Shown: positions 5,992 through 16,420 of the stretch, piece by piece | Numbering within the stretch: the stretch's first letter is position 1 | Layout of the letters: every line of letters starts with the position of its first letter | UHGV virus genome: UHGV-0392077 | DNA from: a virus | Length of the DNA: 38,618 bases | Strand: one strand, 5' to 3' | Notes under the pieces: model-generated | Told to the model about the DNA's origin: nothing | Databases searched by the model: none | The model's input: the letters and a program-made list of their open reading frames with translations, nothing else | Position numbers and translations under genes: made by a program

Positions 5992-6006
5992 TTACCGTTG
6001 AGGTAA
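5992..6006. promoter_or_regulatory. operator-like palindrome TTACC-gttga-GGTAA
   Basis: Perfect half-sites; between the leftward promoter candidate and the first leftward ORF. Confidence 0.5.
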
Positions 6007-6125: not shown

Positions 6126-6710
6126 TTATTGTTTGCTTTTTTCGTTCTGGTTGATGACAAATTCAATGTAACTTTCGATCTTTGCCTTCTCTGTTTCAGG
6201 TAACAATGCGTAGCGCGAGCGATCATAGTTGATAGTCGCAGGGTCGTGCGGGTGAATCAGTAATTCATAGCCGTGACGCCCGAATGCGGATGCAACATTC
6301 TCCAGGGTGGAAATGGAAACGCTGACTTCATTGTTTAACAGGCGGCTGATTGTCACCTGGGCGACGCCGGATGCGCGGTGAAGTTTTCCCTGTGTTGAAA
6401 GGTCGCGGCTTTCGCTCATCCAGCGTTCCAGGTTGTGAGCCGCCAGCTGACCAATGTCGCTTGGGCCGACAGGCTGAAACCCCTCCTGAGAAAGCGAGCG
6501 ATCGATATCAAGCCAGTTACGGGGTTTATTGGCGGCAGCTTCAATTTTTCGCGCAACCTGGTCGCCGATAACCTTCTTGCCAAGAGCCCAGCGGTTTACC
6601 AGATTTGCCTGAGTTCCAAGTTTTTCTGCCATCCGCGTCTGAACACCATTGAATTCACGGTCGATCAAGTCGTTGAGATTTTGCCTGCGGACGTCCTGGA
6701 TACTTTTCAT
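6126..6710 (-). CDS. phage repressor (CI-like), two HTH-like segments, no S24 peptidase domain
   Basis: 194 aa; HTH-like segments GVQTRMAEKLGTQANLVNRWALGKK and GVAQVTISRLLNNE; no Ser/Lys autoprotease signature. Divergent from the Cro-like gene across an operator cluster. Confidence 0.65.
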   Translation of the reverse strand: MKSIQDVRRQNLNDLIDREFNGVQTRMAEKLGTQANLVNRWALGKKVIGDQVARKIEAAANKPRNWLDIDRSLSQEGFQPVGPSDIGQLAAHNLERWMSESRDLSTQGKLHRASGVAQVTISRLLNNEVSVSISTLENVASAFGRHGYELLIHPHDPATINYDRSRYALLPETEKAKIESYIEFVINQNEKSKQ

Positions 6711-6765
6711 TTTCTGGAAAATCGCCTCATATATGAATCAGTAGATGATTCAATTTAAAGCAATA

Positions 6766-6780
6766 TTACCCAACAGGTAA
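6766..6780. promoter_or_regulatory. operator-like palindrome TTACC-caaca-GGTAA (site 1 of the divergent-promoter cluster)
   Basis: Perfect half-sites in the repressor/cro intergenic region. Confidence 0.55.
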
Positions 6781-6782
6781 AT

Positions 6783-6797
6783 GCACCTCATAGGTAA
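6783..6797. promoter_or_regulatory. operator-like variant GCACC-tcata-GGTAA (site 2)
   Basis: Right half-site perfect, left half degenerate; a near-identical GCACC-tcaaa-GGTAA occurs at 7151-7165. Confidence 0.4.
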
Positions 6798-6803
6798 CTA
6801 TCC

Positions 6804-6835
6804 TTGATTTTTGTTACCTTATGGGTGAATATTTA
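6804..6835 (+). promoter_or_regulatory. candidate rightward early promoter (PR-like)
   Basis: TTGATT at 6804-6809, then an A/T-rich -10 candidate around 6828-6835; operator site 3 lies in the spacer. Confidence 0.35.
6814..6828. promoter_or_regulatory. operator-like palindrome TTACC-ttatg-GGTGA (site 3)
   Basis: Same TTACCTTAnnGGTGAAT variant as the site at 9115-9129. Confidence 0.5.
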
Positions 6836-6864
6836 TTATCTGAAATAAATATCAGGCAATAGCT

Positions 6865-7095
6865 ATGAGCGATAACGGACATTTCGATTTCAAAAAGCAC
6901 TGGCTTGCACTTACTCCGGATGAGCGTGAAGCCTTCGCACAGGAAGCCGGAACGACGAGTCACTATATCCAGACTCACTTAACAGGTAAGCGCAAAATGC
7001 CAGGTAAAGTATTGATGAATGGGCTTTTTAAAGCCTGTAAAACAAGACAATGGCTGCGCTCAAAAGCAGAACTGGCATACTTCTTCTACTCATGA
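6865..7095 (+). CDS. Cro-like HTH DNA-binding protein (putative)
   Basis: 76 aa, first gene of the rightward operon, divergent from the repressor; segment EREAFAQEAGTTSHYIQTHLTGKR is HTH-like. Confidence 0.5.
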   Translation: MSDNGHFDFKKHWLALTPDEREAFAQEAGTTSHYIQTHLTGKRKMPGKVLMNGLFKACKTRQWLRSKAELAYFFYS

Positions 7096-7116
7096 TATCC
7101 AGCTACAACCCTCTGT

Positions 7117-7142
7117 AGACCGCCACCTGGCGGTCTTTTCAT
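7117..7142 (+). terminator. rho-independent terminator after the Cro-like gene (tR1-like)
   Basis: AGACCGCC-ACCT-GGCGGTCT followed by TTTTC. Confidence 0.5.
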
Positions 7143-7150
7143 ATCTATTC

Positions 7151-7165
7151 GCACCTCAAAGGTAA
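7151..7165. promoter_or_regulatory. operator-like variant GCACC-tcaaa-GGTAA
   Basis: Near-identical to the variant at 6783-6797; immediately downstream of the terminator. Confidence 0.35.
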
Positions 7166-7243
7166 TAAAAAACCAAATCTGGTTGATCAAATTTTCCAAT
7201 TGTGCAAAATATCCAATATCAATAACAAAAAGGGGCGGAAAAA

Positions 7244-7456
7244 TTGAAGATAGTAACCAGAATGGAGGCCGCAAAAGCCGGGTTAAATCGCTATTTCACA
7301 GGAAAGCGGTGCCGTCACGGCCATCTCTCTGAAAGGTATGTTCTGAACGGAACATGTGTTGAATGTGCAATGAATAGCGCCAACCGCCATCGTAATGAAT
7401 TTGCTTGTGCACTAAAGAGTGCAAGAGGGGAAACCTATGGCAAGCAGCTGGATTAA
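7244..7456 (+). CDS. small Cys/His-rich (zinc-ribbon-like) protein
   Basis: 70 aa from TTG 7244 (AGGGG upstream); contains C-x-H-G-H ... C-x-E-C. Confidence 0.4.
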   Translation: MKIVTRMEAAKAGLNRYFTGKRCRHGHLSERYVLNGTCVECAMNSANRHRNEFACALKSARGETYGKQLD

Positions 7457-8267
7457 GGTTGAAGTTATCACTCCTGATAAACCTGAAATTTTTCAGATAG
7501 CAGAAATTCTGGGTATTGATCCAGATGCTGTTCTTGGAAAGCTGGTTCGTATATGGGCATGGGCTGACCAGCAAACAATAGACGGTAACGCTGGCAGCGT
7601 TACAAAAGGAGTACTTGATAGACTCGCTTTTATTACAGGATTTGCTGACGCCCTCATTAGCGTCGGATGGCTTGCTTATCATGACGGCAAACTAATTCTT
7701 CCAAACTTTGAGCGACACAATGGAGAATCATCGAAAAAACGTGCACTTACGAATAGAAGAGTGGCAGAGCATCGAAAACGAGTAACGCAAAAAGTAACGC
7801 CAACAGCGTTACAAAAGGAGTTACCAGAGGAAGAGGAAGAGGAAGATATATATAAAACCCCACACATAGCGCACGTGCGCGAGGGTGCTCCGACCAGTGA
7901 AGCGAACGGTATGCCGTTGCAGGTGGCTGAACCTGAATTTCTGGATGGCCTGAGTGAACCCATCGGGAAATTTCCGATGACCGATGGCTGGCATCCGTCG
8001 CCGGATTTTCGACGGCGTGCTGCGCTGTGGGGAACGGCCCTGCCGGAACCGGAATTTACACCTGCTGAACTTGCTGCATTCCGGGATTACTGGATGGCTG
8101 AGGGCAAAGTGTTCACGCAGGTTCAGTGGGAACAAAAATTCGCCAGGCACGTAAATCATATCAGGGGAAAATCAAAAAACGCCGGGAAAAGCGATGAGCT
8201 TGACTGGAATAACACTGACTGGATAGAAGGGGTGTGGGATGAAATCAACTCCAGAACTTCTCAATGA
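7437..8267 (+). CDS. replication initiation protein with DnaT-like C-terminal domain
   Basis: C-terminus GKFPMTDGWHPSPDFRRRAALWGTALPEPEFTPAELAAFRDYWMAEGKVFTQVQWEQKFARHV closely parallels the E. coli DnaT C-terminus as I recall it. ATG 7437 with SD-like AGAGGGG. Iteron-like repeats lie inside the gene. Confidence 0.7.
   Translation: MASSWIKVEVITPDKPEIFQIAEILGIDPDAVLGKLVRIWAWADQQTIDGNAGSVTKGVLDRLAFITGFADALISVGWLAYHDGKLILPNFERHNGESSKKRALTNRRVAEHRKRVTQKVTPTALQKELPEEEEEEDIYKTPHIAHVREGAPTSEANGMPLQVAEPEFLDGLSEPIGKFPMTDGWHPSPDFRRRAALWGTALPEPEFTPAELAAFRDYWMAEGKVFTQVQWEQKFARHVNHIRGKSKNAGKSDELDWNNTDWIEGVWDEINSRTSQ
7585..7860. repeat. iteron-like repeats plus AT-rich tract: candidate replication origin inside the initiator gene
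   Basis: GTAACGCT/AGCGTTAC inverted pair at 7585-7603; AGTAACGC at 7781 and 7793; 17-bp direct repeat AGCGTTACAAAAGGAGT at 7596-7612 and 7805-7821, read in different codon phases; then GAGGAAGAGGAAGAGGAAGA and TATATATAAAA (7845-7857). Confidence 0.35.
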
Positions 8268-9015
8268 GTACGATCGCTTACGTGAGCATGGTGTTGCTGT
8301 GCATGAAGAGCGGCGTGACAGCAATGGCAAAAAGGAGCAGGTCGCTAGAATTTTCAATGAACTATTTGTCCAGTTACAGGCTGCATTTCCTGCAAGCGTT
8401 TCGACCATAAGGGAGCAGAACAAACTTAATGAATTCCGTAAGCAATGGATGCTTGCGTTTCTGGAGAATGGGATCACTACAATGGAACAGGTTAACGCTG
8501 GTATGCGCTACGCCCGCGCCAGTGAATCTCCGTTCTGGCCGTCGCCAGGGCAATTTATCAAGTGGTGTAAAGACAGCAAGATGGTTCTTGGCGTCACCAT
8601 TGACGATGTGATGGCGGAGTTTCACCGGTACAGCAAGGAAAAAAGTTTATATCCTGGTGGTCCCGAAAGATTCCCGTGGCGGCATCCGGTTATGTACTGG
8701 GTCGTATGTGATACCCGCCGTGCAATGTATCAGCGCCAGCTTAGCGAGATTGAGGTTGAGAAACACGCGCGCAGGCTGCTCGATGATTGGGCGAAAAAGG
8801 TGGCTTCCGGGCAGCAGATACCAGATCCGGTGATCAGCATACAGGCAAAGCCAGAACCCATGAGTACGCCTCCGGACACAGGGAGAGACGTTTACCACCC
8901 GCCAGGGCGAAGTTTCGGGTGCATGCCTAACGCCGCCACCACGGGGGGAATAACACCGGCGCAGTGGCTGATGGAGGAATACAGGCGGGGAAAGGCGGCA
9001 GGATTTATCAAGTAA
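8239..9015 (+). CDS. lambda P-like replication protein (DnaB helicase loader)
   Basis: Segment QVARIFNELFVQLQAAFPASVSTIREQNKLNEFRKQWMLAFLENGITTMEQVNAGMRYARASESPFWPSPGQFIKWC is near-collinear with phage lambda P as recalled (…FPASLANRDQNEVNEIRRQWVLAFRENGITTMEQVNAGMRVARRQNRPFLPSPGQFVAWC…). Confidence 0.8.
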   Translation: MKSTPELLNEYDRLREHGVAVHEERRDSNGKKEQVARIFNELFVQLQAAFPASVSTIREQNKLNEFRKQWMLAFLENGITTMEQVNAGMRYARASESPFWPSPGQFIKWCKDSKMVLGVTIDDVMAEFHRYSKEKSLYPGGPERFPWRHPVMYWVVCDTRRAMYQRQLSEIEVEKHARRLLDDWAKKVASGQQIPDPVISIQAKPEPMSTPPDTGRDVYHPPGRSFGCMPNAATTGGITPAQWLMEEYRRGKAAGFIK

Positions 9016-9052
9016 TACCAGCGCGATAGCGCATTTTTTTACGTCTCAACAA

Positions 9053-9067
9053 TTACCTATCAGGTAA
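9053..9067. promoter_or_regulatory. operator-like palindrome ATTACC-tatca-GGTAAT
   Basis: Perfect 17-bp palindrome in the 117-bp gap after the P-like gene. Confidence 0.5.
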
Positions 9068-9114
9068 TAAAATATTCTAAACTCTATTGATTTCGTGTCT
9101 TATGTGGTTTTTAA

Positions 9115-9129
9115 TTACCTTAGAGGTGA
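9115..9129. promoter_or_regulatory. operator-like palindrome TTACC-ttaga-GGTGA
   Basis: Overlaps the SD region 4 nt upstream of ATG 9133. Confidence 0.45.
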
Positions 9130-9132
9130 ATC

Positions 9133-9477
9133 ATGAGAAAACAGATACAGGCTCTTGGTCGACTCAAAACAGGCCAGATGAACAAAACAGAATCTGCGTA
9201 TTGCCAGCACCTTGAGCTGCGTAAACGTGCAGGGGAAATCGCCTGGTATCGATTCGAGGGTATCAAGCTGCGGTTAGCTGACAACACGTTCTATACGCCA
9301 GATTTCGCAGTGATGCTCGCCACCGGAGAGATGGAACTGCACGAAGTGAAAGGTTTCTGGACCGATGACGCCAGGGTGAAAACCAAAGTCGCCGCAGATC
9401 AGTATCCGTTCCGAATCATCGGGGTAACGGTTAAACCAAAGAAAGCAGGTGGTGGCTGGAACATCGAAGAGTTCTGA
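9133..9477 (+). CDS. hypothetical protein, DUF1064-like (possible nuclease)
   Basis: 114 aa; the family assignment is from memory of the overall pattern (YTPDFAV ... HEVKG) and is unverified. Confidence 0.45.
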   Translation: MRKQIQALGRLKTGQMNKTESAYCQHLELRKRAGEIAWYRFEGIKLRLADNTFYTPDFAVMLATGEMELHEVKGFWTDDARVKTKVAADQYPFRIIGVTVKPKKAGGGWNIEEF

Positions 9478-9538
9478 ATCGACGATCTTTTTAGTTATCA
9501 ATGTAATCAATAAGTTATGTGGATAAGCGAGGGTAAAG

Positions 9539-16405: not shown

Positions 16406-16420
16406 TTACCTGAAAGGTAA
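16406..16420. promoter_or_regulatory. operator-like palindrome TTACC-tgaaa-GGTAA
   Basis: In the non-coding region upstream of the portal operon; the flanking GGTAATAATTTG is repeated again at about 16478. Confidence 0.5.

What the first reader, a model, noticed from the sequence alone, without database searches (positions are those of the whole stretch)
7437..9015. Replication module pairs a DnaT-like initiator with a lambda-P-like helicase loader
The initiator's C-terminal about 70 residues match the E. coli DnaT C-terminal domain as I recall it, while the next gene is clearly lambda-P-like. The phage may therefore recruit DnaB through P but connect to the host restart primosome through a DnaT-mimicking domain instead of a lambda-O-type C-terminus. 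Both alignments are to sequences recalled from memory.
Basis: partly seen in the sequence, partly recalled or inferred. Interest (0 to 1): 0.5.

Follow-up and report, generated by a model that had tools for sequence, protein, structure and literature searches.

The report
Phage initiator with DnaT-like domain
This is an ordinary, already annotated lambda-style replication gene pair of a phiV10/epsilon15-like E. coli phage, whose initiator carries the DNA-binding domain also found in the host restart protein DnaT but keeps the lambda O tail that probably docks its own lambda-P-like helicase loader.

Summary
ORF 7437-8267 (276 aa) carries a DnaT C-terminal domain: 53% identity to E. coli DnaT residues 82-157, E=3e-23. 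The overlapping ORF 8239-9015 is a lambda-P homologue (39% identity, E=1e-49).

It is not new. The window is 97-98% identical to phages ZX5 and TL-2011b, and in phiV10 the equivalent genes are annotated as DnaT family plus lambda P family. At least 576 viral contigs encode the domain, and DopC/DopE (2017) has the same architecture.

The initiator is a three-part mosaic:
- An N-terminal domain with cognate GTAACGC-N5-GCGTTAC palindromes inside its own gene, which I predict to be the origin.
- The DnaT-type ssDNA-binding domain, with all six known ssDNA-contact residues conserved, sitting where lambda O has an unrelated domain.
- A lambda-O-type extreme tail (LDWNNTDWIEGV against lambda LDLTNTDWIYGV).

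The N-terminal part of P covaries with this tail, not with the middle domain.

The protein lacks DnaT's N-terminal domain and its universal IPxGFRG tail, so a link to the restart primosome is unsupported, though not excluded.

By-product: across 163 distinct initiator C-termini, IPxGF tails go only with DnaC-like loaders or with no phage loader, and the other tail types only with P.

The parts
7437..8267 (+). Replication initiator gene (276 aa), a three-part mosaic: N-terminal origin-binding domain, DnaT-type ssDNA-binding domain, lambda-O-type tail
   Evidence: PHROG 2509 over its full length, E=1.5e-129. PF17948. Close homologues are named 'DnaT-like ssDNA-binding domain-containing protein'. 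It sits upstream of and overlaps the P gene, in an early-right operon after cro-like and repressor genes.
7437..7811 (+). N-terminal domain (aa 1-125), the presumed sequence-specific origin-binding domain. No Pfam family matches. The model shows helices plus a beta-hairpin.
7585..7612 (.). Palindromic repeat 1, GTAACGC-TGGCA-GCGTTAC followed by AAAAGGAGT. Predicted initiator-binding site.
   Evidence: The 28-nt repeat occurs exactly twice in the window, against 0 expected. It is conserved at the same gene offset (149) in all five relatives with this N-terminal domain.
7782..7824 (.). Repeat cluster 2: half-site GTAACGC (7782-7788), palindrome GTAACGC-CAACA-GCGTTAC+AAAAGGAGT (7794-7821), and GTTAC (7820-7824). 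Half-sites are spaced 12 bp apart.
   Evidence: Five of the nine GTAACGC heptamers in the 38.6-kb window lie within 7585-7812. Cluster 2 is read in a different frame from repeat 1. In L006 and L007 it is in yet another frame, with invariant arms and variable spacers. The two 60-nt bins that hold the repeats are the best conserved of the module.
7827..7880 (.). Purine run GAGGAAGAGGAAGAGGAAGA (7827-7846), short AT-rich stretch TATATATAAAA (7847-7857) and perfect 12-bp palindrome GCGCACGTGCGC (7869-7880). Predicted unwinding region of the origin. The mosaic junction lies at about 7857.
   Evidence: Sequence read. AT content peaks at 75% at 7840-7859. DNA identity to L093, L094 and the Klebsiella phage is 71-91% up to 7856 and falls to 33-43% in the next 60-nt bin. 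The layout (repeats, then AT-rich stretch, then palindrome, in the middle of the initiator gene) resembles ori-lambda, whose iterons lie at 39-48% of gene O.
7950..8186 (+). DnaT C-terminal-type three-helix ssDNA-binding domain (aa 172-250)
   Evidence: 53% identical to E. coli DnaT 82-157, E=3e-23. PF17948. PDB 6aep, 4ou6, 9zbt. The ssDNA-contact residues Y127, W128, K133, F135, K143 and R146 (PMC4132743) are all identical. G-K-F-x-M, which lies inside the null deletion dnaT822, is invariant.
8199..8234 (+). Lambda-O-type extreme C-terminal tail motif LDWNNTDWIEGV (aa 255-266), the predicted docking site for the N-terminal part of P
   Evidence: 9 of 12 residues are identical to lambda O 286-297, LDLTNTDWIYGV. 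The same two tail types (NTDWI and HWNSxEAW) occur on lambda-O-family proteins. The type of the P N-terminal part follows the tail type. Lambda Oam205 removes only YGVDL.
8239..9015 (+). Lambda-P-like helicase loader gene (258 aa)
   Evidence: PF06992 E=4.5e-55. Lambda P 39% identity, E=1e-49. PDB 8v9t E=6e-43. PHROG 109.
8239..8484 (+). N-terminal part of P (aa 1-82, corresponding to lambda P domain I and part of domain II), lambda-type. Exchanged together with the initiator's C-terminal half.
   Evidence: Against phiV10 P, aa 1-80 are diverged (22/79 identical) while aa 83-258 match at 173/176. DNA identity to phiV10 is 25-63% up to about 8456 and 94-100% from 8517. Lambda P domain limits come from PMC12661323.
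8485..9012 (+). C-terminal part of P (rest of domain II, domains III and IV), the presumed DnaB-binding part
   Evidence: It aligns to lambda P domain III, which contacts the DnaB C-terminal domains. It is nearly identical in phiV10.
7117..7146 (+). Intrinsic terminator-like hairpin upstream of the replication cassette (context only)
   Evidence: Found in the scan. phiV10 annotates a terminator at the equivalent place.

Best explanation
This is the lambda-style 'initiator plus P loader' replication module of a temperate phiV10/epsilon15-like podovirus (Uetakevirus group).

Shown by sequence:
- Gene 1 is a modular initiator.
- Gene 2 is a lambda-P homologue.

Inferred from comparative evidence:
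1. The N-terminal domain binds the GTAACGC-N5-GCGTTAC palindromes that lie in two clusters about 200 bp apart inside its own gene. This clusters many initiator copies next to the purine/AT-rich stretch at 7827-7858, which serves as the origin.
2. The DnaT-type domains, now at high local concentration, bind and coat the exposed single strand cooperatively. DnaT's C-terminal domain does this on lagging-strand ssDNA. The effect is to stabilise the bubble and mark the helicase loading site.
3. The lambda-O-type extreme tail (LDWNNTDWIEGV) docks the N-terminal part of P. The C-terminal domains of P hold and open host DnaB, which is then delivered onto the ssDNA.

On this model the DnaT-like domain is a non-homologous replacement of lambda O's own C-terminal domain. 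It is not a bridge to PriA/PriB.
For: Gene identities.

Prior annotation: the same module is already annotated in phiV10, epsilon15, ZX5 and TL-2011b.

Origin:
- The 28-nt repeat occurs twice against 0 expected, and 5 of 9 GTAACGC heptamers lie within 228 bp.
- The arms are invariant, the spacers vary and the reading frame changes across five relatives that share the N-terminal domain. The motif is absent from the initiator genes of epsilon15 and pAEv1818.
- phiV10, which has a different N-terminal domain (HTH_36), has a different classical iteron array at the same place in its gene.

ssDNA function:
- All six residues whose mutation impairs DnaT ssDNA binding are identical.
- GKFxM, which lies inside the null deletion dnaT822, is invariant.
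- The DnaT C-terminal domain forms ssDNA filaments.

Generic role: the domain occurs with P-like loaders, with DnaC-like loaders, and with no phage loader.

Tail as P dock:
- The motif is shared with lambda O.
- L093 combines the window's N-terminal domain with a phiV10-type tail. Its P N-terminal part is 71% identical to that of phiV10 and 31% to that of the window.
- In six modules, the P N-terminal part groups by tail type (46-65% within the HWNS group, 23-35% across groups), regardless of whether the middle domain is DnaT-type or lambda-O-type. The C-terminal part of P groups differently.
- Genetics cited in PMC6022878 place P binding in the C-terminus of O and O binding in the N-terminus of P. 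Oam205 truncates only the last five residues of O.
Against: - Nothing here is experimental for this phage.
- The AT-rich stretch is short, about 12-20 bp.
- The palindromes also resemble weak hairpins on the minus strand.
- Repeat 1 lies in a conserved protein motif (DGNAGSVTK), so its conservation is confounded.
- Covariation of the tail with the P N-terminal part is confounded by physical adjacency, since both lie within one mosaic block at about 7857-8480.
- The isolated DnaT C-terminal domain binds ssDNA weakly (Kd about 13-27 uM).
- PriA docking of the domain was not tested.
- Epsilon15 has the domain but neither tail nor loader. The domain itself may therefore contribute to recruiting host DnaB/DnaC.
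Confidence: 0.55

Rival explanations
1. The DnaT-like domain mimics DnaT and docks onto host PriA (and PriB). The phage origin is then handled as a restart substrate, and the primosome cooperates with P-DnaB.
For: The domain is 53% identical to the DnaT C-terminal domain. That domain docks on PriA HD2/CTD through a hydrophobic surface in the preprimosome structures. An acidic run (EEEEEED, aa about 139-145) precedes the domain, loosely recalling DnaT's acidic PriB-binding linker.
Against: - DnaT's N-terminal domain and linker are absent.
- DnaT's universal IPxGFRG tail is replaced by a lambda O tail.
- The acidic run belongs to the N-terminal/origin module. It is also present in the Klebsiella protein that lacks the DnaT domain, and it is encoded by the purine run of the predicted origin.
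- The residues known to be conserved are the ssDNA contacts. The PriA-contact residues are not listed in the paper's text and could not be checked.
- From established knowledge, lambda O/P replication itself needs no PriA or DnaT.
Confidence: 0.12
2. The DnaT-like domain is itself the receptor for P, making it the functional equivalent of lambda O's P-binding C-terminal domain. ssDNA binding would be incidental.
For: It occupies the position of the region of lambda O assigned to P binding. The domain diverges together with the P N-terminal part between module types (46-57% identity between classes).
Against: - The same domain is found with DnaC-like loaders and with no loader at all.
- Lambda-O-family proteins with an unrelated middle domain carry the same two tail types and pair with the matching P N-terminal types.
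- The ssDNA-contact residues are strictly kept.
Confidence: 0.15
3. The DnaT-type domain, as an ssDNA filament, directly attracts host DnaB or DnaB-DnaC, as once proposed for DnaT. P would be an add-on that merely outcompetes DnaC for DnaB.
For: Epsilon15 has an initiator ending right after this domain and has no loader, helicase or primase gene anywhere in its genome. [quoted passage not shown]
Against: No DnaT-DnaB or DnaT-DnaC contact has been documented. [quoted passage not shown] P-partnered initiators always carry a P-type tail.
Confidence: 0.1

Closest known systems
Phage lambda O/P replication module (ori-lambda inside gene O)
   Same: - Adjacent, overlapping initiator and loader genes downstream of cro/cII-like genes.
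- P is homologous: 39% identity, with PF06992 matched over its full length.
- Repeated binding sites and an AT-rich stretch lie in the middle of the initiator gene.
- The initiator ends in the same tail motif, LDxxNTDWIxGV.
   Different: - The N-terminal domain is not Phage_rep_O/HTH_36.
- The binding sites are two separated clusters of 7-bp inverted half-sites rather than four contiguous 18-bp iterons.
- Lambda O's C-terminal domain is replaced by a DnaT-type domain with no detectable homology to it.
E. coli DnaT (primosomal protein I, replication restart)
   Same: The three-helix ssDNA-binding C-terminal domain is shared: 53% identity, with all six ssDNA-contact residues and the GKFxM segment conserved.
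   Different: - No DnaT N-terminal oligomerisation/PriB-binding domain and no DnaT linker.
- No [IV]PxGF[RK]G tail.
- 276 aa instead of about 179.
- Followed by a P-like gene, not dnaC.
- Fails the NCBIfam equivalog cut-off, 93 against 201 bits.
phiV10 p43/p44, and the near-identical genes of phages vB_EcoP_ZX5, HEMP4 and TL-2011b
   Same: ZX5, HEMP4 and TL-2011b are 97.6-98.4% identical over 6800-9500. phiV10 has the same architecture and annotation: DnaT family by HAMAP MF_01061, followed by lambda P family. Its P C-terminal part is about 98% identical.
   Different: phiV10's initiator has an HTH_36 N-terminal domain, CCCAAAAACGGGA iterons, an HWNS-type tail and a different P N-terminal part.
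DopC/DopE of Cellvibrionales and Oceanospirillales (Brezellec et al. 2017, PMC5509034)
   Same: An O-like protein carrying a DnaT C-terminal motif sits immediately upstream of a P-like protein.
   Different: DopCE is chromosomal and domesticated. It has an HTH_36 N-terminus and no iterons, and it is proposed to serve oriC. The window's pair is phage-borne, has a different N-terminal domain and carries candidate origin repeats.
Rac prophage YdaU/YdaV and the epsilon15 initiator
   Same: The DnaT-type domain is 89% (Rac-SA53 YdaU) and 45% (epsilon15) identical to the window's. The position in the early-right operon is the same.
   Different: - YdaU has DUF1376 at the N-terminus, an extra tail of about 85 aa, and a short P (153 aa) that lacks the N-terminal part of P.
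- Epsilon15 has a related N-terminal domain but no tail and no loader.

Membership tests
DnaT (primosomal protein I; NCBIfam NF002770, HAMAP MF_01061) | C-terminal three-helix ssDNA-binding domain (PF17948) | tested here: met
   PF17948 E=6.5e-19. 53% identity to DnaT 82-157, E=3e-23. PDB hits.
DnaT (primosomal protein I; NCBIfam NF002770, HAMAP MF_01061) | ssDNA-contact residues Y127, W128, K133, F135, K143, R146, and the GKFAMY segment | tested here: met
   All six are identical in the alignment. The residue list comes from PMC4132743. G-K-F-x-M is invariant in phage and cellular sequences.
DnaT (primosomal protein I; NCBIfam NF002770, HAMAP MF_01061) | N-terminal oligomerisation/PriB-binding domain and acidic linker (residues 1 to about 83) | tested here: not met
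   There is no similarity outside DnaT 82-157. The whole-protein equivalog score is 93.4 bits against a cut-off of 201.
DnaT (primosomal protein I; NCBIfam NF002770, HAMAP MF_01061) | Extreme C-terminal [IV]PxGF[RK][GD] tail | tested here: not met
   15 of 15 cell-sized cluster representatives carry it. The window protein ends ...LDWNNTDWIEGVWDEINSRTSQ.
DnaT (primosomal protein I; NCBIfam NF002770, HAMAP MF_01061) | Binds PriA/PriB and functions in restart; gene lies upstream of dnaC | not testable with these tools
   The genomic context is a phage early operon followed by a P-like gene, not dnaC. Binding would need experiments or complex modelling.
Lambda O-type initiator | N-terminal Phage_rep_O / HTH_36 iteron-binding domain | tested here: not met
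   There is no Pfam hit on aa 1-128. Lambda O gives PF04492 at E=5.7e-36. phiV10's initiator gives HTH_36.
Lambda O-type initiator | Origin (repeated binding sites plus an AT-rich stretch) inside the initiator gene | tested here: met
   This is a prediction only. It rests on the repeat statistics, cross-phage conservation independent of reading frame and the layout. No binding data exist.
Lambda O-type initiator | Lambda O C-terminal domain (aa about 160-275) | tested here: not met
   hhalign of the DnaT-domain alignment against the lambda O C-terminal alignment gives probability 0.4%.
Lambda O-type initiator | Extreme C-terminal tail LDxxNTDWIxGV, with the gene overlapping the start of P | tested here: met
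   9 of 12 residues are identical. The overlap with P is 29 nt.
Lambda P helicase loader (PF06992) | Full-length match above Pfam gathering score, with similarity to lambda P domains I-III | tested here: met
   186 bits against a cut-off of 26, model positions 2-162 of 162. 39% identity over lambda P 1-199. PDB 8v9t.
Lambda P helicase loader (PF06992) | C-terminal lasso (domain IV) and binding to or opening of DnaB | tested here: inconclusive
   The C-terminal 60 aa align only loosely with lambda P 193-233 (TPAQWLMEEYRRGKAAGFIK against AKIAEIKAKFGLKGASV). DnaB binding cannot be tested here.
DopC/DopE domesticated pair | Chromosomal, non-prophage context; HTH_36 plus DnaT_C; no iterons | tested here: not met
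   The context is a phage genome, 97-98% identical to sequenced phages. The N-terminal domain is different. Repeats are present.

The most novel reading that the evidence does not exclude
The last 10-20 residues of DnaT-domain proteins act as a swappable address label for the helicase loader.
- [IV]PxGF[RK]G would address DnaC-DnaB. It is universal in cellular DnaT. It is also present in phage initiators that are followed by a DnaC-like loader, or that have no loader and must use the host's.
- The lambda-O-type tails (NTDWIxGV, HWNSxEAW, or a long acidic/aromatic tail) would address the N-terminal part of P.

The window's protein would be the P-addressed version. The cellular dnaT-dnaC operon would be the chromosomal counterpart of a phage initiator-loader cassette. 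If this is true, it names a concrete candidate for the still unknown contact by which DnaT recruits DnaB/DnaC in replication restart.
Probability: 0.35. Interest if true: 0.7.

Novelty: already known. Interest (0 to 1): 0.33.

Why it matters
The pairing itself matters little. It is a common, already annotated module of enterobacterial temperate phages.

It is useful as a clean natural domain-swap series. The same DnaT-type ssDNA-binding domain is combined with at least seven N-terminal origin-binding domains, four tail types and three loader situations. That series supports two points:
- The DnaT domain is a generic 'hold the unwound strand' module of initiators.
- Loader choice is encoded in the extreme tail.

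For lambda biology, this points to NTDWIYGVDL as the candidate P-docking element of O. For E. coli replication restart, it offers a testable candidate (IPPGFRG) for the undocumented DnaT to DnaC/DnaB link.

Tried and rejected
2. Remote homology between the DnaT domain and lambda O's C-terminal domain. hhalign gave probability 0.4%, so I rejected it.
3. The idea that the extra tail of about 85 aa on Rac-type initiators is the missing P N-terminal part moved to the other gene. hhalign of 74 tails against six P N-termini gave probability 0.2%, so I rejected it. PHROG 15931 does match both proteins, which hints that fused forms exist. I did not pursue this.
4. The acidic run EEEEEED as a mimic of the PriB-binding linker. 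I rejected it as evidence because it travels with the N-terminal/origin module and is encoded by the purine run of the predicted origin.
5. Literature search for 'DnaT-like' together with phage found nothing. Only Brezellec 2017 notes the domain in an O-like protein.
6. PriA-contact residues of DnaT could not be extracted from the text of PMC13377028, since they appear in figures only. Conservation of that surface was therefore not assessed.
7. The neighbour of P0137 lay on too short a contig to classify.
8. Five long-tailed initiators showed no P within 2.5 kb by my ORF filter. This is probably an ORF-calling or start-codon artefact, because a sister locus, L006, has the gene.
Full report
**1. 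What is there**

They are 7437-8267 (276 aa) and 8239-9015 (258 aa).

The first protein:
- It matches PHROG 2509 'replication initiation protein' end to end, E=1.5e-129.
- It carries Pfam PF17948 'DnaT DNA-binding domain' at aa 179-249, E=6.5e-19.
- Against a real E. coli DnaT, picked up as host flank in locus L216, BLASTP gives 53% identity over 79 residues, E=3e-23. The match is confined to DnaT 82-157.
- Solved DnaT C-terminal domains match at E of about 1e-19 to 1e-21.

The second protein:
- It is a full-length Pfam Phage_lambda_P match, E=4.5e-55.
- It is 39% identical to lambda P over 201 residues, E=1e-49.
- It matches the solved DnaB-lambda P structures, 8v9t at E=6e-43.

The only correction is that the DnaT-like stretch is followed by a 26-residue tail.

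**2. Context and prior knowledge**

The genes lie in an early-right operon. A two-HTH repressor gene sits at 6126-6710 (-) and a cro-like gene at 6865-7095 (+). A terminator-like hairpin follows at 7117-7136, then a small conserved ORF at 7244-7456, the two replication genes, and a DUF1064 gene.

The 2.7 kb around the finding is 97.6-98.4% identical to phages vB_EcoP_ZX5, HEMP4 and TL-2011b. In ZX5 the genes are annotated 'primosomal protein I' and 'DNA replication protein'. The phiV10 RefSeq record notes 'DnaT family (HAMAP MF_01061)' and 'Phage lambda P family (PF06992)' for the equivalent genes. The epsilon15 record cites HHpred 2ru8 (DnaT) for its initiator.

NCBI names the close homologues 'DnaT-like ssDNA-binding domain-containing protein'. 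The domain is encoded on at least 576 IMG/VR contigs and in 54 GenBank phage records. Brezellec et al. 2017 described an O-like protein with a DnaT C-terminal motif next to a P-like protein, DopC/DopE. The pairing is therefore already known, though only as annotation. I found no experimental work on it.

**3. The initiator is a three-part mosaic**

DNA identity to relatives with the same N-terminal domain (L093, L094, Klebsiella phage ST11-OXA245phi3.2) is 71-91% from 7437 to 7856, then collapses. Identity to phiV10 is at background level until about 8456 and is 94-100% from 8517 onwards.

The exchange units are therefore:
- (a) The N-terminal domain plus the repeats and the purine/AT-rich run, 7437-7856.
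- (b) The linker, the DnaT domain, the tail and the N-terminal part of P, about 7857-8480.
- (c) The C-terminal part of P.

Across 240-odd fetched loci the DnaT domain is joined to at least seven different N-terminal domains. These are the window type, the epsilon15 type, the pAEv1818 type, DUF1376/YdaU, 'MARIRTIKPEFW', the Chris1 type and HTH_36.

**4. Predicted origin**

A 28-nt repeat, GTAACGC-N5-GCGTTAC-AAAAGGAGT, occurs at 7585 and 7794 and nowhere else in the window, against 0 expected. Five of the nine GTAACGC heptamers in the 38.6-kb window fall within 7585-7812.

The two copies are read in different frames. In all five relatives that share this N-terminal domain, the half-sites recur at the same offsets. 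The arms are invariant, the spacers vary, the spacing is 12 bp, and in L006 and L007 the second cluster sits in yet another frame. The motif is absent from the epsilon15 and pAEv1818 initiator genes. phiV10, with an HTH_36 N-terminal domain, has instead six CCCAAAAACGGGA iterons at the same place.

After the second cluster come a purine run at 7827-7846, TATATATAAAA at 7847-7857, and a perfect GCGCACGTGCGC palindrome at 7869-7880. This resembles ori-lambda inside gene O.

**5. What the DnaT-like domain probably does**

The six DnaT residues whose mutation cripples ssDNA binding are Y127, W128, K133, F135, K143 and R146 (PMC4132743). All six are identical in the phage protein. The GKFxM segment, deleted in the null allele dnaT822, is invariant across phage and cellular sequences.

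In the 2026 preprimosome structures, the DnaT C-terminal domain forms a helical filament on lagging-strand ssDNA. PriB is contacted by the acidic linker, and oligomerisation and possible DnaB/DnaC recruitment are assigned to the N-terminal domain (PMC13377028). The phage protein has none of those N-terminal elements and fails the DnaT equivalog cut-off.

The same domain occurs in initiators followed by any of three loader situations:
- A P-like loader.
- A DnaC/IstB-like loader, as in Aeromonas phage pAEv1818, L096-L101 and L174.
- Nothing. Epsilon15 has no loader, helicase or primase gene anywhere in its genome, and 27 further distinct initiators have no loader nearby (tblastn found none in 33 such loci).

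A domain kept across all three situations is best read as a loader-independent module. It would bind cooperatively to the unwound origin strand once the N-terminal domains have concentrated the protein at the repeats. This is an inference, not a demonstration.

**6. How P is probably recruited**

Lambda O ends ...KPKLDLTNTDWIYGVDL. The window's initiator ends ...DELDWNNTDWIEGVWDEINSRTSQ, with 9 of 12 residues identical. This is the only similarity between the two proteins. The middle domains are unrelated.

Lambda-O-family proteins carry either this tail or an HWNSxEAW tail. The latter is also the tail of phiV10 and L093.

Covariation evidence:
- L093 has the window's N-terminal domain but a phiV10-type tail. 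Its P N-terminal part is 71% identical to phiV10's and 31% to the window's.
- Over six modules, the first 78 residues of P group by tail type. The HWNS group shares 46-65% identity, window and lambda share 38%, and cross-group values are 23-35%. This holds irrespective of the middle domain.
- The rest of P groups by lineage instead: window, phiV10 and L093 at 70-96%, and lambda, L177 and L179 at 45-54%.

Classical genetics places P binding in the C-terminus of O and O binding in the N-terminus of P. The amber mutant Oam205 (TAC to TAG at 39570, leaving 294 of 299 residues) removes only YGVDL (PMC6022878).

Physical adjacency of the tail and the start of P is a confounder. Even so, the pattern across different middle domains argues that the tail is the P dock.

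**7. By-product: tail type tracks loader type**

Among 163 distinct initiator C-termini:

| Tail type | DnaC-like loader downstream | No loader within 2.5 kb | P-like loader downstream |
|---|---|---|---|
| [IV]PxGF, phage-type initiator | 7 | 27 | 0 |
| [IV]PxGF, cellular dnaT-dnaC | 2 | 0 | 0 |
| NTDW | 0 | 0 | 10 |
| HWNS | 0 | 0 | 15 |
| Long acidic/aromatic | 0 | 5 | 86 |

A further 10 sequences lay on loci too short to classify. One sequence, epsilon15, had no tail and no loader.

Other points:
- All 15 cell-sized DnaT cluster representatives, some highly diverged, end in P.GF[RKQN].
- The loader-less epsilon15-like phages copy the E. coli tail almost exactly: RDVNAVPEPDSEIPPGFRG against RDVNTVSEPDSQIPPGFRG.
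- A Klebsiella phage initiator has the window's N-terminal domain, no DnaT domain, the DnaT tail, and no loader.

This suggests the tail is a loader address, with IPxGFRG perhaps the missing link from DnaT to DnaC/DnaB. Reviews and the 2026 structure paper say this contact is still undefined. It is correlative evidence, it goes beyond the finding, and it needs experiments.

**8. Verdict**

It is an ordinary, already annotated member of a widespread phage replication module.

My best model is as follows. The N-terminal domain binds the palindromes in its own gene. The DnaT-type domain holds the unwound strand. The lambda-O-type tail docks the N-terminal part of P, and P delivers DnaB. I hold this at about 0.55 confidence.

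The overall interest score is modest. The comparative series around the module is the more valuable result.

Noticed in passing
Related loci L091, L096-L101, L174 (DnaC-like loader); L180-L209, L172, L173, L004 (no loader); L216-L217 (host dnaT-dnaC); proteins P0145-P0189: The extreme C-terminal tail of DnaT-domain proteins tracks the loader perfectly. [IV]PxGF tails go with a DnaC-like loader or with no phage loader, never with P. NTDW, HWNS and long acidic tails go with P, never with DnaC. All 15 cell-sized DnaT representatives end in P.GF[RKQN]. Loader-less epsilon15-like phages nearly copy E. coli DnaT's last 19 residues.
   Followed up: yes
window 6765-6830, 7152-7165, 9052-9067, 9115-9128, 16406-16420, 5992-6005, 934-947 and others: Operator-like sites (CACCTCWNAGGTAA / TTACC-N-GGTAA) are scattered over the genome: 15 matches at up to 2 mismatches, against about 1 expected. 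They cluster between the repressor and cro-like genes and flank the replication cassette. Epsilon15's record annotates dispersed 'repressor (lysogeny)' binding sites in equivalent places.
   Followed up: partly
window 7152-7178 and 9102-9128: A 27-nt inverted repeat, 89% complementary, brackets the cassette of small ORF, initiator and P. Each arm contains an operator-like site next to a terminator-like or promoter-like sequence. It may mark separate regulation or a mosaic boundary of the replication cassette.
   Followed up: no
window 7244-7456 (+): A small conserved ORF (70 aa, PHROG 1081, no known function) carries a CxH...CxxC motif (CRHGH...CVEC). It sits immediately upstream of, and overlaps, the initiator gene. 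ORFs of the same size and position are called in L093, L094 and the Klebsiella phage (L004), and phiV10 p42 is annotated as similar to epsilon15 gp40.
   Followed up: partly
L004 3001-3771 (Klebsiella phage ST11-OXA245phi3.2); proteins P0077-P0120: A large Klebsiella group has an N-terminal domain about 90% identical to the window's, together with the GTAACGC palindromes and the acidic run. The middle domain is unrelated and unannotated, the tail is the DnaT tail RDVNTISRPDTEIPPGFRG, and no loader gene follows. The tail evidently moves independently of the DnaT domain.
   Followed up: partly
L089 (Rac-SA53 ydaU/ydaV), L092, L094, L006-L008, L023-L088: Initiator tail length and P length are complementary. 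Initiators with an extra tail of about 85 aa ending in an acidic/aromatic motif (e.g. LDCTDWRDD) pair with short P proteins of 129-153 aa that lack the N-terminal ~80-100 residues present in the long P proteins (lambda P domain I and much of domain II). Short-tailed initiators pair with full-length P. The long tail is not homologous to the missing part of P (hhalign probability 0.2%).
   Followed up: partly
Proteins P0198, P0205, P0210, P0227, P0228, P0231, P0232, P0234 and others: Some proteins of 300-450 aa show three or four separate matches to the DnaT-domain profile, which could mean tandem DnaT-type domains in one chain. I did not examine them.
   Followed up: no
L173 3001-4080 (protein P0165): An initiator with a pAEv-type N-terminus has a T5orf172/MUG113 (GIY-YIG-like) domain inserted before the DnaT domain. 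It carries an IPNGFNGS tail, and no loader lies within 1 kb downstream.
   Followed up: no
window 7827-7860, and the linkers of relatives: The acidic or Lys/Asp-rich linker peptides before the DnaT domain are encoded by purine/AT-rich DNA next to the repeats. Examples are EEEEEEDIYK in the window, TTDKDKDKDLKDK in pAEv and DTKDTITKEKRKD in lambda O. Linker composition seems to be dictated by the origin's unwinding element rather than by protein function.
   Followed up: partly
window 9133-9477 (+): The slot downstream of the replication genes holds a DUF1064 / PHROG 190 'Holliday junction resolvase'-like gene here. In epsilon15 the same slot holds a RuvC-type resolvase. This is a non-homologous replacement at a fixed position.
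   Followed up: no
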